Below are positions 22,355-63,566 of a stretch of DNA of 64,000 bases, piece by piece. The translations under genes were made by a program, and so were the position numbers. The notes below the pieces were generated by a model. The model did no database searches, was not told the DNA's origin, and saw nothing but the letters and a program-made list of their open reading frames with translations. Each line of letters opens with the position of its first letter. Position 1 is the stretch's first letter. Source of the stretch: Escherichia coli (lineage in GTDB: Bacteria; Pseudomonadota; Gammaproteobacteria; Enterobacterales; Enterobacteriaceae); the NCBI RefSeq assembly GCF_044324875.1, contig NZ_CP172185.1; one strand, given 5' to 3'.

Positions 22355-22562
22355 AAATCTCCATCCAGGTTGCGTAAGAGCCACTTTTCATCCGTCGTCG
22401 ATATCTGGGATAGCCATAGTGAAATAAAAAGCTGTCTGAATTAAATTATTTTGCACATATATTTTAATCCTGCACTGAATTAAGAATGGGTAATCAGTGA
22501 CCGCTTGGACGGTCACTTTTAAGAGAAGGCATTAACAGAGAATGGTAAACAGGCTCAATATA

Positions 22563-48737: not shown

Positions 48738-48925
48738 GTTGGAGTCATTACCGTAAGCATGTATAAAAACAGGTTAAGATCAGATTCGGTTTTAAGGCAA
48801 TTTACCAGTTCGGCAGCAATAGCATTGGATTCTTGTTTATCAATTGCCTGTCTCCACGGTGTAGGGAACATATCAAAAACAGGCAATTACAAAATTTAAA
48901 TTACACTCTCGTCAGAACATAGCCC

Positions 48926-56800: not shown

Positions 56801-57322
56801 ATAGTTTCTCCCGTATACCGCTCATGCAACTCCCGCATTAAAATATACTGTTCCTTCCGGATAATTACGTTAAAATATACACCTGCGTGCATCTGTGTCA
56901 GACTCCGTTAGATACCAGCGTACATTGTAAACATGCCGGATGCACGCAATACAATAATCGGTCTTTTCGGAGTTATAGTCACCAGGCTGGCATCCCGTAA
57001 ATATGTATCAGGTAGCAATTCAGGAAGCGAACAAAAGCGCCTGGAGAAGGTTATCTCTGATAATAATTTACATGAAATGTCTCCTTTATTCTTCGCGAAT
57101 AAGGCCTTCAGTGTTCTCCCCTTTTCAGCAATTCTTACCGTAGTAATCACTCCTGCCTGTGTATAACACGAGAATTGCCAGAGTTTAACGTTTCGGTATC
57201 GTTATCCTGCATGATGTTGAACAGAACCGGGCGTGAATTCTGCGCCAGAATTTTCTTTCGAGGAACAGGTGATGCTGCCAACTTACTGATTTAGTGTATG
57301 ATGGTGTTTTTGAGGTGCTCCA

Positions 57323-57598
57323 GTGGCTTCTGTTTCTATCAGCTGTCCCTCCTGTTCAGCTACTGACGGGGTGGTGCGTAACGGCAAAAGCACCGCCGGA
57401 CATCAGCGCTATCTCTGCTCTCACTGCCGTAAAACATGGCAACTGCAGTTCACTTACACCGCTTCTCAACCCGGTACGCACCAGAAAATCATTGATATGG
57501 CCATGAATGGCGTTGGATGCCGGGCAACTGCCCGCATTATGGGCGTTGGCCTCAACACGATTTTACGTCACTTAAAAAACTCAGGCCGCAGTCGGTAA
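57323..57598 (+). CDS. insA: IS1 InsA (copy 2)
   Basis: Identical to copy 1. Confidence 0.9.
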
Positions 57599-58020
57599 CC
57601 TCGCGCATACAGCCGGGCAGTGACGTCATCGTCTGCGCGGAAATGGACGAACAGTGGGGCTATGTCGGGGCTAAATCGCGCCAGCGCTGGCTGTTTTACG
57701 CGTATGACAGGCTCCGGAAGACGGTTGTTGCGCACGTATTCGGTGAACGCACTATGGCGACGCTGGGGCGTCTTATGAGCCTGCTGTCACCCTTTGACGT
57801 GGTGATATGGATGACGGATGGCTGGCCACTGTATGAATCCCGCCTGAAGGGAAAGCTGCACGTAATCAGCAAGCGATATACGCAGCGAATTGAGCGGCAT
57901 AACCTGAATCTGAGGCAGCACCTGGCACGGCTGGGACGGAAGTCGCTGTCGTTCTCAAAATCGGTGGAGCTGCATGACAAAGTCATCGGGCATTATCTGA
58001 ACATAAAACACTATCAATAA
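57517..58020 (+). CDS. insB: IS1 InsB frame (copy 2)
   Basis: Identical to copy 1. Confidence 0.9.
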
Positions 58021-58412
58021 GTTGGAGTCATTACCCGAGGAACATTCCGGGTTATCTGTAGTACAGGAGGAGATTTTCTCCTATTTCAAATAAAATTCAA
58101 TGACAGGTGAATATTTAAATATAAATGCATCGCTTCAACAGAGAAATCGGAATTACGCCCGGAACCAGGCCTGAATGAATAATGGAGGAGGTAAAATAAT
58201 ATTATTGATGAAAATATCAAATTAAGTCCCCCTTCTCCTTCCCCAGCTTAAATATACTTACTTTTTCACTGGATAATATGTTATTGAATTACAAAGTTGA
58301 TCCTGATATACATGATTTCCGGCTCTTGCATCCAGTGATAACTTTATATACTCCTGCAAAGGCGAACTTCGTAAAAGTATACTTTTCTGTTGTAAGCATT
58401 GAGGTATCGAAT

Positions 58413-58765: not shown

Positions 58766-59290
58766 TTATGGGATGATACCACAGGCAATTCTTGCACCAC
58801 CGCCACCTAGAGGTTCAGGATGGTCATCATGATTATCACCTCCTGCGTGGAGCATTAGCGAACGGCCATCGAGCTCCTTTAATTCAGATAGTCTTGGCGC
58901 AAGCACCGGGTAGGTTGCTTTTCCGTCATGAGTGACATAAAGCGCAGGGAGATCACCCAGGTGGCCATCAGGAGACCATGGACCGAGATGCTTCCCTGTT
59001 TTTTCCGGGTCAAAGTGACCACCTGCAGATAAAGCAGCGACAGTTTTTCCATCTTTCAGGGCAGGAGCACAACTTGCGTTTTCATGTACATGAAAACCAT
59101 GAATGCCGGCGGGTAAGGAGTGAAGATCAGGGGTGAACAGCAGCCCGTAGGGTGTCTTCTGGATGGTTATTTTACCAATATTTCGCTCTTTTCCGTCACT
59201 ATCAACAAGATTCATTGTTACATCTTTGGTGGCTGCATATCCACAGGATGATGTAGCCAGAATCACAAAGGCAATAAGTTTACGTTTCAT
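58766..59290 (-). CDS. sodC: Periplasmic Cu/Zn superoxide dismutase (island-borne, divergent from chromosomal SodC)
   Basis: 174 aa; signal peptide; metal-ligand motifs HGFHVHE and [12 protein letters not shown]. Confidence 0.85.
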
Positions 59291-59594: not shown

Positions 59595-60210
59595 AAGTGC
59601 CCTGTGCTGCTTAAAGTGCCGCTGCATGCCACCACATGGCTGAGCAGCAACAGGTATTGTTGTTCCTTCATGTTGTTCACGCAACCAGCGTAATACCACC
59701 GGCGAGGATGGACTGTCAGTGTGATTACGTTCAGTAATACGTTCATAAAAGGAAGTTCAGAATGCATGAATCTGTTGTCCGTTGATGTTTCCTTCTGTCG
59801 AATTGTGTGTGAAGTGGACAATCAGAAAATGCGGCCAGTGATCCACTGCCTGTTGAATAAAACGCCGGATGTCTCCCGGCTCTGCAAGTAATGCTTCAGT
59901 TTCCTGCACTATTTTATCCCTGTTGAATTTTGTCAAACCGGTGCAGACACGCAGGAAAGTATGCCAGCACTGGTGTAATGCCAGTAACATACAATAAGAA
60001 TGAAATGACGAATCAGTCAGGAAAGGGTGCCCCCATTGGCAACCCATTGACTGAGCAGAGGATACAATCAGGAAGGTTAACGAGAGTATCTCCGACATCA
60101 GGGGCAGGATTGATTTCTACAATACCAGCGCCGGCATTGAGCCTGTACATAGATTTATGTAATTGCCTGATTTTGATATGTTCAATTCAACATCAAATGA
60201 AAGCTAAATT

Positions 60211-60950
60211 ATGGACGACACACAATTGCAGGCTCTGGCTAACGAACTGGCCAAAAATCTCAAAACCCCTGAAGATCTCAGTCAGTTCGATCGCCTGCTC
60301 AAGAAAATAAGTGTTGAGGCAGCTCTCAACGCTGAACTGACTCACCATCTGGGACATGAAAAAAATCAGACCAAATCGGGAACCAACTTCCGTAATGGCT
60401 ATTCCACGAAAACCGTCACCACTACCGACGGGCCGATGGAATTACGTACTCCACCTGATCGTGATGGTTCCTTCGAACCACAACTGGTGAAGAAAAATCA
60501 GACCCGCATTACCGGCATGGACAACCAGATCCTGGCGCTGTATGCCAGAGGGATGACTACCCGCGAAATTACCTCAGCCTTCAAAGAAATGTACGACGCC
60601 GATGTCTCGCCCACGCTGATATCCAAAGTGACCGATGCGGTTAAAGAACAGGTCTCTGAATGGCAAAACCGACCGTTGGATGCACTGTATCCCATTGTTT
60701 ATCTTGACTGTATTGTGGTTAAGGTTCGTCACAGCGGGAGTGTCATTAACAAAGCGGTGTTCCTCGCGCTGGGAATCAATACCGACGGTCAGAAAGAGCT
60801 GCTGGATATGTGGCTGGCCGAAAATGAAGGTGCAAAGTTCTGGCTGAATGTACTGACGGAACTGAAAAATCGCGGCCTGAACGATATCCTTATCGCCTTC
60901 GTGGACGGCCTGAAAGGCTTCCCGGAAGCGATTAATGCCGTCTATCCCAT
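60211..60950 (+). pseudogene. IS256-family (IS1414-like) transposase, 3'-truncated
   Basis: 263 aa ORF matches the N-terminal two-thirds of IS1414-type Tnp; diverges just after AINAVYP. Confidence 0.65.
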
Positions 60951-61181
60951 AAAGCCGGATACGCTCATTTTGGGCGGGATCTCCACAAGCATATGGATAT
61001 GATCTGCACAGCACTCAGCTTCAAGAATCCGTACACTTTTCCACTCACACAGCTTTCTCAAAATAATGCCTGTTGCTTTACGCTTCTCTCTGTAGAACAC
61101 TTTTCTTCGGTATTTTGGCGCAAAAACTATGTGATATTTACAGTTCCATCGGGTATGCGCTAAGCTCTTTTCGTTCCCCAT
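60942..61181 (-). pseudogene. IS200 TnpA N-terminal fragment
   Basis: MGNEKSLAHTRWNCKYHIVFAPKYRR...HIHMLVEIPPKMSVSGFMG; 3' half missing. Confidence 0.7.
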
Positions 61182-61270
61182 TGGGACCCCCTTTTGATTT
61201 CTTGTTTGACACTTGCAGTTGCCAGACCGCAAGGTGTTTTAACAAATCAAAAGGGGTTTTAATAACTGGC

Positions 61271-62417
61271 TCAAAGCTGAAAGCTTTCCGGCCCCCAGCC
61301 TAGCTGGGGGTTTTCTGTGCACAAAAATCCGGAAACGAGTGAGCGTTTCAGGATTCTTAAACAGACCCTGGATCGGTCAACTGCTCCTAAACTGATCGGC
61401 ATTACACCTGTCGGCTGCCGTTTTTTCAGCTCCGTGATCCATGGGCCGGGTTCTTTGGTCAGCAATGCTGCCGCCCTTGCCCCATGGATAAATAATGTCC
61501 GGTGGTAGGTATCCCCACGTTTGCTTATCCCCAGCATGCGAACCTTCCCAGCGGACCCCGTCTGCTTCGGCACCAGACAGACATAAGCGTCAAACTCACG
61601 TCCGGATTTAAATGCTGAGGCCTCGCCCATGGTGGCGACCACCGCCGTAGCGATTAACGGCCCCACACCGGGGATTTCCATTAGGCGCTTACAGTTTTCG
61701 CTCTGCCGTGCCACGCTGTTAATCTGTTTATCAAGGCCATCTATCTGCATGCCCAGCTCACTCAGTCTGTTGTACTGGTATTCAAGCACAGTGATGAGAT
61801 ACGGCGGCAGGTTCGTCTTCATTCGCTCTAGGGCTGTCGGTAGCTTTCTGTCCATCGCTGTCCGATCTTTGTGGAGGATTTCACCAAACTCGAGGAGCGT
61901 GCCAAGGGTATTAATATGCGAGGTTCTGAACTTCACCAGTTGTCTGCGCGAACGGTGCAGGACCAGAACTGACTGCTTCTCTTCCGTTTTAACAGCGATA
62001 TCTTTACTGGGCTGCTGTACCGCCATCCAGATAGCACGCGCATCCATCACATCATTTTTGTTGCCCATGACGAATGCTTTAACGAAGCGAGCTTGCAACA
62101 GCCGAACTTTGTGTCCCAGTTTTTTCCAGTTCCCTCGCCCAATGTTGGGAGCCTCCACAAGCCTCCATACCTATCAGACAGGGTTCCCGGTTGCTGAAGA
62201 ACGTCAGAAAATCCTTGCTACGTAGCTGCTTGTCCACCACTTCGCCCGTGTACTCATTGATGAAGTGAACCTGAATCAGATACTTTGCGATATCAACGCC
62301 AACCGGTGTATATTTCATTTGTGGAGTCGCCAGTCTGAGGGCGCTTTTGCATCCCGTATTGGGCACTATGATGCCGGAAATCTGAGAGGCTCCACAGCAG
62401 ACAATTTTACCCTTCAT
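61271..62417 (-). pseudogene. IS110-family transposase, frameshifted
   Basis: N-terminal ORF 62079..62417 and C-terminal ORF 61271..62158 overlap in different frames. Confidence 0.6.
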
Positions 62418-62651: not shown

Positions 62652-63566
62652 ATGCACTCAATAAAAAAATTAACCATGCTCTTGGGGTTCCTCGCCCTCA
62701 CCTGCTCGATCGCATTTCAGGCGAGTGCAACTGAAAAATTCAAGGTCATTACAACATTTACCATCATCGCAGATATGGCCAAAAACGTGGCTGGAGATGC
62801 TGCAGAAGTCTCATCCATAACCAGGCCCGGTGCAGAAATTCATGAGTATCAGCCTACCCCTGGCGATATTAAACGTGCGCAGGGGGCACAACTGATTCTC
62901 GCCAACGGTATGAATCTGGAATTGTGGTTCCAGCGCTTTTACCAGCATCTCAGTGGTGTTCCAGAAGTGATTGTCTCTTCGGGTGTGACGCCAGTAGGGA
63001 TCACCGAAGGCCCCTACGAGGGAAAACCTAACCCTCATGCCTGGATGTCGCCAGATAATGCTTTGATTTACGTCGATAATATTCGTGATGCGTTGATAAA
63101 ATACGATCCGGCAAATGCAAAAACATACCAACGTAATGCCGATACTTATAAAGCCAAGATTACCCAAACCCTTGCCCCCCTGCGTAAGCAGATTGCTGAA
63201 CTCCCTGAGAATAAAAGATGGATGGTCACCAGTGAAGGGGCTTTTTCTTATCTCGCACGCGATTTGGGGCTAAAAGAGCTTTATCTGTGGCCGATAAATG
63301 CCGATCAACAAGGAACACCCCAGCAGGTACGTAAAGTGGTTGATATAGTGAAGAAAAATAATATCCCAGCGGTATTTAGTGAGAGTACGGTTTCCGATAA
63401 ACCAGCGCGTCAGGTTGCGCGTGAAACCGGCGCACACTACGGCGGTGTGCTCTATGTCGATTCCCTGAGCACAGAAAACGGCCCGGTACCTACGTATATC
63501 GACCTTCTGAAGGTTACTACCAGTACGCTGGTGCAGGGAATTAAAGCCGGGAAAAGGGAGAAGTAA
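62652..63566 (+). CDS. sitA: Mn/Fe ABC transporter periplasmic binding protein SitA
   Basis: 304 aa; signal peptide; TroA/ZnuA-like cluster-9 binding protein; followed by an ATPase gene. Confidence 0.8.
   Translation: MHSIKKLTMLLGFLALTCSIAFQASATEKFKVITTFTIIADMAKNVAGDAAEVSSITRPGAEIHEYQPTPGDIKRAQGAQLILANGMNLELWFQRFYQHLSGVPEVIVSSGVTPVGITEGPYEGKPNPHAWMSPDNALIYVDNIRDALIKYDPANAKTYQRNADTYKAKITQTLAPLRKQIAELPENKRWMVTSEGAFSYLARDLGLKELYLWPINADQQGTPQQVRKVVDIVKKNNIPAVFSESTVSDKPARQVARETGAHYGGVLYVDSLSTENGPVPTYIDLLKVTTSTLVQGIKAGKREK

What the first reader, a model, noticed from the sequence alone, without database searches (positions are those of the whole stretch)
60935..60952. Only the first five codons of an astA (EAST1)-like overlapping ORF remain in the truncated IS1414-like transposase
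In IS1414-type elements the EAST1 toxin gene overlaps the transposase just after the AINAVYP codons. Here the element is cut at that exact point, leaving ATG CCG TCT ATC CCA TAA. An EAST1 gene is therefore absent, but the remnant shows the element is of the astA-carrying lineage.
Basis: partly seen in the sequence, partly recalled or inferred. Interest (0 to 1): 0.3.

Follow-up and report, generated by a model that had tools for sequence, protein, structure and literature searches.

The report
Chance mini-ORF at an IS junction
The six-codon "toxin gene remnant" is a chance reading frame created where two broken insertion sequences were joined, and it is not a leftover of the EAST1 enterotoxin gene, so the finding is ordinary.

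Summary
The sequence is there: window 60935-60952 reads ATGCCGTCTATCCCATAA. It sits at the 3' cut of an IS256-family transposase pseudogene (60211-60944). It is not an astA remnant, for five reasons.

1. In real IS1414, astA starts at the D-A codons of FPDAINTVYP. In gap-free DNA and protein alignments that position is AAG in the window (60926-60928).
2. The window's ATG lies 9 nt further on, opposite astA codon 4. The shared "MPS" is a coincidence of GATGCCATC and AATGCCGTC.
3. The last five bases, including the stop, come from an inverted IS200C remnant fused at 60943-60947.
4. The element is only 82.6% identical in DNA (85% in protein) to IS1414.
5. An intact element identical to the window over the last 145 nt before the cut has only a 12-codon ORF in this frame (MPSTRRRRSSCA*), followed by further stops. 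Intact copies at the same chromosomal site read KR* there.

In near-identical complete genomes this remnant is the left boundary of a ~20-kb sitABCD-aerobactin island. The right boundary is a second, full-length IS256-family copy. Both pseudogenes are already annotated in RefSeq. Interest is low.

The parts
60935..60952 (+). The reported mini-ORF ATG CCG TCT ATC CCA TAA. It is a chimera: 60935-60942 comes from the IS256-family element, 60943-60947 is shared by both partners, and 60948-60952 (including the stop) comes from IS200C.
60138..60944 (+). Left ~807 bp of an IS256-family insertion sequence. It includes the left inverted repeat GAGCCTGTACATAG... from 60138 and the transposase ORF from 60211. 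The ORF keeps D166 and D232 of the DDE triad but has lost E339.
   Evidence: NCBIfam NF033543 scores 254.9 bits against a cut-off of 150. RefSeq annotates a pseudogene at 60211-60948. Identity is 82.55% to IS1414, 91.5-92.1% to L003-type elements and 99.5-99.7% to intact copies at the same site. DDE positions come plus established knowledge of the family.
60926..60928 (+). The position truly homologous to the astA start codon. It reads AAG here (from GAA GCG, E-A), where IS1414 reads ATG (from GAT GCC, D-A).
   Evidence: Gap-free DNA alignments, gap-free protein alignment, and the frame map.
60943..60947 (.). Junction zone TATCC. TA (60943-60944) and CC (60946-60947) are shared by both partners. 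T at 60945 matches IS200C rather than the closest IS256-type sequence, which has C.
60945..61326 (-). IS200C remnant in inverted orientation. It keeps the left end, the 5'UTR (Rfam STnc490, 61191-61312) and the first ~79 codons of tnpA (60945-61181). The 3' part of the element is missing.
   Evidence: 96-97% identity to intact IS200C, RefSeq pseudogene, Rfam match at 133.7 bits.
61388..62318 (-). IS110-family transposase pseudogene, frameshifted and lacking its C-terminus.
   Evidence: RefSeq annotation of the identical locus and split ORFs 61271-62158 and 62079-62417.
62652..63566 (+). sitA, the first gene of sitABCD and the first cargo gene of the island that the IS remnants border.
58766..59290 (-). 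sodC-like Cu/Zn superoxide dismutase gene. It is the conserved left neighbour of the IS256-family element in genomes both with and without the island.

Best explanation
The 18 bases are a meaningless reading frame that spans the joint between two dead insertion sequences. An IS256-family element is a mosaic relative of IS1414 and ISEc39, not IS1414 itself. It is fused at a 2-5 nt microhomology (60943-60947) to an inverted, 3'-deleted IS200C. In the frame shifted by one base, the transposase codons AAT GCC GTC TA read ATG CCG TCT A. The IS200C sequence then supplies TCCCATAA and hence the stop.

The resemblance to the start of EAST1 (MPS...) is a coincidence. In IS1414 the toxin's ATG comes from GAT GCC ATC (D-A-I), three codons upstream, and the window has GAA GCG ATT there. 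The lineage that carries this exact sequence never had an EAST1 ORF. Its frame reads KRLMPSTRRRRSSCA*, followed by more stops, and three of the four EAST1 cysteine positions are replaced.

Inferred, not shown: the truncated copy is the left product of a single homologous crossover. That crossover would be between a chromosomal IS256-family element next to sodC and an already truncated copy carried at the edge of a ~20-kb sitABCD-aerobactin island. The full-length right product lies ~20 kb downstream, beyond the end of the window.
For: The sequence and coordinates are exact.

Position of astA. In IS1414, astA is L001:1501-1617 and encodes MPSTQYIRRPASSYASCIWCATACASCHGRTTKPSLAT. It starts at gATGcc of FPDAINTVYP. 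Six IS1414-family transposases all carry FPDAINTVYPKARIQLC. Gap-free alignments put the astA ATG opposite window AAG at 60926-60928, and put the window ATG opposite astA codon 4.

Junction. A three-way alignment with intact IS200C and an intact IS256-type element places it at 60943-60947.

What lay beyond the cut. L020, an intact 402-aa transposase gene, is identical to window 60800-60944. It continues TACCCGGAGACG..., which gives MPSTRRRRSSCA* in this frame. Four further elements of that type (L003, L004, L008, L009) show the same or a nearly identical 12-codon ORF. They differ from astA at 27-50 of 117 positions, with L004's count inflated by an indel in the ungapped comparison. Published astA variants differ at no more than 12 positions (PMC12585946). 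Intact copies at the same sodC site read GCGATAAATAGC, which is KR* in this frame.

Relationship to IS1414. Identity is 82.55% in DNA and 85% in protein. RefSeq calls the locus 'IS256 family transposase', not 'IS1414 family'.

Island context. In NZ_CP033635.1 the truncated copy and a full-length copy bracket IS200-IS110-sitABCD-IS1-ISL3-iutA-iucDCBA-MFS-ISL3. At least nine genomes listed in both searches show the same two hits 20-22 kb apart. The left copy equals the empty-site element over alignment columns 1-~800. The right copy equals it from column ~360 to the end. This is what one crossover would produce.
Against: Elements of this group are recombination mosaics. One intact same-site copy (L010) has an IS1414-type 3' half and therefore carries a start-less C-terminal astA fragment. 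The lost 3' part of this particular copy cannot be read directly. For the island model, integration into an intact element and excision that regenerates one predict the same sequences, so the direction is undetermined. A draft contig (L015) shows an arrangement that the simple model does not predict.
Confidence: 0.9

Rival explanations
1. One reading: the element is an IS1414 of the astA-carrying lineage, and the mini-ORF is the first five codons of astA left after truncation.
For: The ORF has the same reading frame as astA, begins M-P-S like EAST1, and the cut lies inside the astA-homologous stretch.
Against: The true astA start position is AAG here. No gap exists that could shift the start by 9 nt. 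Seven of the first 19 astA-homologous bases differ from the prototype. The stop and probably the last two codons are IS200C sequence. Identity to IS1414 is 82.55%. An intact element with identical local sequence has no EAST1 ORF.
Confidence: 0.04
2. The copy once carried a partial, start-less astA fragment in its lost 3' half, as the mosaic same-site copy L010 does. In that loose sense it would be astA-associated, although the mini-ORF itself is unrelated.
For: L010, which is 99.7% identical over the retained part, switches to IS1414-type sequence about 60 nt after the cut position. In the astA frame it encodes ...SIWCATACASCHGRTTKPSLAT*. Ooka et al. report C-terminal astA fragments in 350 genomes.
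Against: The window differs from L010 at 4-5 of the last 14 bases before the joint. There it follows the L003/L020 type, whose downstream sequence has stops in that frame. The common same-site variant (P0005/L013, 50 contigs) is ISEc39-type downstream, not IS1414-type.
Confidence: 0.05
3. The mini-ORF is a functional small ORF, for example a translated five-residue peptide or a leader.
For: The ORF is identical in the few near-identical relatives read directly (L015, L018). 54 complete genomes carry the same junction at 99.8% identity. That conservation is explained by recent common descent.
Against: It lies inside a pseudogene at a junction of two dead elements. ORFs of this size are expected by chance, with 490 ATG-to-stop frames of six codons or fewer in the window. 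No expression signal was examined or is implied.
Confidence: 0.01

Closest known systems
IS1414 with embedded astA (EAST1) - McVeigh et al. 2000; Ooka et al. 2025 (PMC12585946)
   Same: Both belong to the IS256 family. The transposases align without gaps over 246 residues (85% identity). The terminal inverted repeat is similar. The cut lies inside the segment that encodes the start of astA in IS1414.
   Different: DNA identity is 82.55%. The motif is FPEAINAVYP rather than FPDAINTVYP, so the astA start position is AAG. There is no EAST1 ORF. RefSeq does not name the locus IS1414.
Unnamed IS256-family elements of E. coli ('L003/L020 type') and ISEc39
   Same: L020 is identical over the last 145 nt before the cut. 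L003-type elements are 91.5-92.1% identical overall. A block (alignment columns ~481-720) is ISEc39-type. Intact copies sit at the same sodC-adjacent site in other E. coli at 99.5-99.7% identity.
   Different: The window copy is cut after codon 245-246 and fused to IS200C. The intact relatives are 402 aa long, or 386 aa in a frameshifted variant.
IS200C (IS200/IS605 family)
   Same: 96-97% identity over window 60945-61300, including the 5'UTR sRNA element STnc490 and the tnpA N-terminus.
   Different: Only the 5' ~380 bp remain. The rest of tnpA and the right end of the element are deleted at the joint.
'astA fragments' of decayed IS1414 copies (350 genomes in Ooka et al. 2025)
   Same: Both are products of IS decay in the same group of elements.
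   Different: Those fragments retain genuine C-terminal astA sequence. The window retains none: only 17-22 nt of the homologous region remain, and they are of a non-astA type.

Membership tests
astA / EAST1 gene | Start codon at the D-A codons of FPDAINTVYP of the IS1414 transposase, one base out of frame | tested here: not met
   The homologous position 60926-60928 is AAG. The window's ATG is 9 nt downstream.
astA / EAST1 gene | 117-nt ORF encoding 38 residues with Cys17, Cys20, Cys24 and Cys27 | tested here: not met
   The ORF is 5 codons long. The intact element with identical local sequence gives 12 codons, then stops. At the homologous positions only Cys24 is kept, and Cys17, Cys20 and Cys27 are replaced.
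astA / EAST1 gene | Nucleotide similarity within the range of known variants (no more than 12 differences in 117 nt; PMC12585946) | tested here: not met
   Seven of the first 19 homologous bases differ. L003-type relatives differ at 27-50 of 117 positions, with L004's count inflated by an indel in the ungapped comparison.
IS1414 (same IS or isoform) | Near-identity to the reference. My recollection of the ISfinder convention is roughly >95% DNA or >98% protein identity for one IS. | tested here: not met
   82.55% DNA identity over 808 nt and 85% protein identity over 246 aa. RefSeq names it only 'IS256 family transposase'.
IS256 family insertion sequence | Transposase matching the family profile | tested here: met
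   NF033543 scores 254.9 bits against a cut-off of 150, covering profile positions 1-207 of 338. Pfam PF00872 is recorded on homologues.
IS256 family insertion sequence | Complete DDE triad and two terminal inverted repeats, that is, a functional element | tested here: not met
   The left repeat is present at 60138. D166 and D232 are present. E339 and the right repeat are missing because the element ends at 60944. Residue roles are assigned from general knowledge of the family.
IS200C | High identity to IS200C, including the 5'UTR and tnpA | tested here: met
   96-97% identity and STnc490 at 133.7 bits. The element is truncated, with the tnpA C-terminus absent.

The most novel reading that the evidence does not exclude
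The broken IS256-family copy is one of two direct repeats sharing ~470 bp that bracket a ~20-kb sitABCD-aerobactin virulence island. On this reading the island entered the chromosome by a single homologous crossover between IS256-family copies and could leave the same way. Rampant mosaicism among IS1414, ISEc39 and related elements would then be the trace of such exchanges. It would also be the route by which start-less astA fragments spread into non-IS1414 elements.
Probability: 0.5. Interest if true: 0.25.

Novelty: not a real feature. Interest (0 to 1): 0.06.

Why it matters
It matters little. It is a useful caution that a short M-P-S frame inside an IS256-family transposase is not evidence of astA, because only IS1414 proper has the toxin's start codon and open frame. 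Genome screens for EAST1 should require the real start position and the cysteine pattern. The surrounding structure is of modest interest for how iron-uptake virulence modules move between replicons: a sit-aerobactin island bracketed by IS256-family copies. The adjacent chromosomal arrangement of the two operons has already been figured for strain IAI39 (PMC7592755).

Tried and rejected
- My remembered astA sequence was only 90.6% identical to real copies. I replaced it with the ORF read from an annotated IS1414 (L001:1501-1617).
- The original IS1414 paper (PMC101527) is not held. I used Ooka et al. 2025 instead.
- I looked for the IS256/IS200 joint on plasmids and found none among 72,556 records. 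Plasmid hits start at the IS200 part only. The best plasmid match to the IS256 part is 92.3%.
- One plasmid with IS200 next to a metal-transporter fragment (H106/L019) turned out to be an unrelated aggR plasmid context.
- I considered a 9-nt indel that would make the window's ATG the astA start. This is rejected because the DNA and protein alignments are gap-free.
- I considered that the last 14 nt before the joint, which differ from the same-site intact copies, might be IS200 or filler DNA. This is rejected because they match L003/L020-type IS256 sequence exactly.
- I tried to use draft contig L015 as an intermediate in forming the junction. Its 38-nt|75-nt joint is absent from all 5,426 complete genomes, so it remains unexplained.

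Full report
**Observation.** Window 60935-60952 is exactly ATGCCGTCTATCCCATAA. It lies one base out of frame with a 263-codon ORF (60211-61002). That ORF's first 245-246 codons are an IS256-family transposase, and the rest (IKPDTLILGGISTSIWI*) is read-through into foreign sequence. NCBIfam NF033543 (IS256 family transposase) scores 254.9 bits against a cut-off of 150 and covers only profile positions 1-207 of 338. Near-identical RefSeq genomes annotate the same stretch as an 'IS256 family transposase' pseudogene missing its C-terminus (window 60211-60948). It abuts an 'IS200/IS605 family transposase' pseudogene on the other strand (60945-61181), then an IS110-family pseudogene and sitABCD. The string is real and the transposase is truncated at this point. 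A frame of this size is unremarkable: ATG followed by a stop within six codons occurs 490 times in the window, and ATGCCnTCn occurs 12 times.

**Where astA really sits.** I took a RefSeq-annotated IS1414 from plasmid p720632_94 (L001). Its only 38-codon ORF in the relevant frame is L001:1501-1617, encoding MPSTQYIRRPASSYASCIWCATACASCHGRTTKPSLAT, which is EAST1. The ATG is formed by the transposase codons GAT GCC (D-A) in ...GLKGFPDAINTVYPKARIQLC.... Six other IS1414-family transposases carry the same FPDAINTVYPKARIQLC. Ooka et al. 2025 confirm that all known astA types lie inside IS1414. They report that variants differ from the prototype by at most 12 nt, and that Cys17, 20, 24 and 27 form the disulfides (PMC12585946).

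**Alignment.** The window element and IS1414 align without any gap over 808 nt at 82.55% identity. The proteins align without any gap over 246 residues at 85% identity. Codon by codon, IS1414 reads CCG GAT GCC ATC AAC ACA GTA TAT CCG and the window reads CCG GAA GCG ATT AAT GCC GTC TAT CCC.

- The astA ATG (gATGcc) therefore aligns with window AAG at 60926-60928.
- The window's ATG (aATGcc, 60935) aligns with astA codon 4 (ACA).
- The two frames are the same, but the starts are 9 nt apart.
- 'M-P-S' arises twice by coincidence, from GAT GCC ATC in IS1414 and from AAT GCC GTC here.
- Read from the homologous start, the window frame is K R L M P S I P *. Seven of the first 19 bases differ from astA.

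**The joint.** I aligned the window with an intact IS200C (L007) and an intact IS256-type element.

- The window follows the IS256 type through ...GCCGTCTA (60944).
- It follows the reverse complement of IS200C from TATCCCATAAAGCCGGATAC... (60943 onward).
- L020, an intact 402-aa transposase gene found through protein P0017, is identical to window 60800-60944 and then has C where the window has T at 60945.

The break is therefore most likely between 60944 and 60945, with TA and CC as flanking microhomology. In any case it lies within 60943-60947. Bases 60948-60952, including the stop codon, are IS200C sequence: the complement of tnpA codons ...F M G. The mini-ORF is a chimera of two elements.

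**What lay beyond the cut.** L020 continues TAC CCG GAG ACG CAG ATC CAG TTG TGC ATA G. In the astA frame this gives MPSTRRRRSSCA*, followed by further stops. At the positions homologous to EAST1 Cys17, 20, 24 and 27, only Cys24 is kept. Four more elements of this type, from two chromosomes and two plasmids (L003, L004, L008, L009), show the same or a nearly identical 12-codon ORF. They are 90-92% identical to the window. They differ from astA at 27-50 of 117 positions, with L004's count inflated by an indel in the ungapped comparison.

Intact copies sit at the very same chromosomal site next to the sodC-like gene, with identical upstream flank and 99.5-99.7% identity over the retained part (L010, L011, L013, L017). 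They read GCG ATA AAT AGC GTG TAC there (AINSVYPQTH), which is K R * in the astA frame. None of the closest relatives has an EAST1 gene, so the remnant does not mark an astA-carrying lineage.

One caveat applies. These elements are recombination mosaics. L010 switches to IS1414-type sequence about 60 nt past the cut position and so carries a start-less C-terminal astA fragment...SIWCATACASCHGRTTKPSLAT*. That is the class of 'fragments' Ooka et al. found in 350 genomes. The window's last 14 bases follow the L003/L020 type rather than L010. I therefore rate a similar history for this copy as unlikely, though not excluded.

**What the structure is.** 54 of 5,426 complete E. coli genomes carry the same joint at 99.8% identity. 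In NZ_CP033635.1 (L018), which is 99.77% identical to the window from 58036 to its end, the order is:

1. sodC-like gene
2. truncated IS256-family copy
3. IS200C remnant
4. IS110 remnant
5. sitABCD
6. IS1 remnant
7. ISL3
8. iutA-iucDCBA
9. MFS transporter gene
10. ISL3
11. integrase fragment
12. full-length (frameshifted) IS256-family copy
13. sigma-like and YadA-like genes

Genomes without the island have sodC, one intact IS256-family element, then the sigma-like and YadA-like genes. At least nine genomes listed in both searches show the two hits 20-22 kb apart.

A windowed comparison shows three things. The left copy equals the empty-site element over alignment columns 1-~800. The right copy is ISEc39-type over columns 1-~360. 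From there to its end the right copy equals the empty-site element with no differences. That is the pattern expected from one homologous crossover between a chromosomal element and a truncated copy at the island's edge. The truncated copy would have been already fused to IS200C. The reverse reading is equally possible: excision between the two copies could have regenerated the single element. The sequences do not say which came first. This part is inference. The adjacent chromosomal arrangement of aerobactin and sitABCD has already been figured for strain IAI39 (PMC7592755).

**Unresolved.** A draft contig (L015) carries a full window-type element and 38 nt of native flank. It then carries a 75-nt fragment identical to window 60873-60947, fused to the same IS200C remnant. 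Deletion between the 61-nt repeat would yield the window's structure. However, this joint is absent from all complete genomes and may be a later rearrangement or a mis-assembly.

**Function.** The retained transposase fragment keeps D166 and D232 but lacks E339 and the right inverted repeat (residue roles are from general knowledge of IS256-family DDE enzymes). The element is therefore immobile. Nothing suggests the five-codon frame is expressed. astA has no match anywhere in the 64-kb window.

**Verdict.** Its headline is wrong: the mini-ORF is not the beginning of astA and does not indicate an astA-bearing lineage. The feature as claimed is not real, and the underlying pseudogenes are ordinary and already annotated. 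Interest is low.

Noticed in passing
window 57268-58035: A complete 768-bp IS1 with a 9-bp target duplication CGAGGAACA (57259-57267 and 58036-58044). It is absent at this spot from the related genomes L010, L013 and L018, so it is a recent, strain-specific insertion.
   Followed up: partly
window 61191-61312 (-): A full-length match to Rfam STnc490 (Hfq-binding sRNA derived from the IS200 5'UTR) at 133.7 bits against a gathering score of 56. It is retained in the truncated IS200C.
   Followed up: no
window 22404-22562: A ~70-nt right-end scrap of another IS256-family element (22489-22562, 85.9% to the IS1414 3' end). It lies next to a reverse copy (22404-22488, 94%) of the 85-nt sequence that flanks the right end of the sodC-locus element in other genomes. 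That 'flank' may therefore itself be repeated mobile DNA.
   Followed up: partly
window 48758-48917 (-): A ~150-nt left-end remnant of an ISEc39-like IS256-family element, about 77% identical.
   Followed up: no
L010:2929-4240 (same chromosomal site in GCA_949768685.1): This intact 402-aa transposase gene is a three-way mosaic: window-type 5' part, ~60 nt of ISEc39 type, then IS1414-type 3' half. It carries a start-less C-terminal astA fragment. Together with L013, L018-right and P0017 it shows frequent recombination among IS1414, ISEc39 and related elements.
   Followed up: partly
L015:4240-4360 (draft contig MUBP01000018.1): A full IS256-family element plus 38 nt of native flank is joined without homology to a 75-nt fragment identical to window 60873-60947 and the same IS200C remnant. 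This joint is not found in any complete E. coli genome. It could be an intermediate, a rearrangement or a mis-assembly.
   Followed up: partly
window 58766-59290 (-): The sodC-like gene here is clearly different from the K-12 chromosomal sodC (judged from memory of the K-12 protein). It sits in an IS-rich region, which suggests an acquired second Cu/Zn superoxide dismutase.
   Followed up: no
E. coli K-12 and many other genomes, about position 1.24 Mb in K-12 (hits H57-H78): A ~100-nt fragment 94-95% identical to the left end of this IS256-family element (window 60136-60240) is present in most E. coli genomes, annotated as or within a hypothetical protein. It is an ancient IS scar at an unrelated locus.
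   Followed up: no
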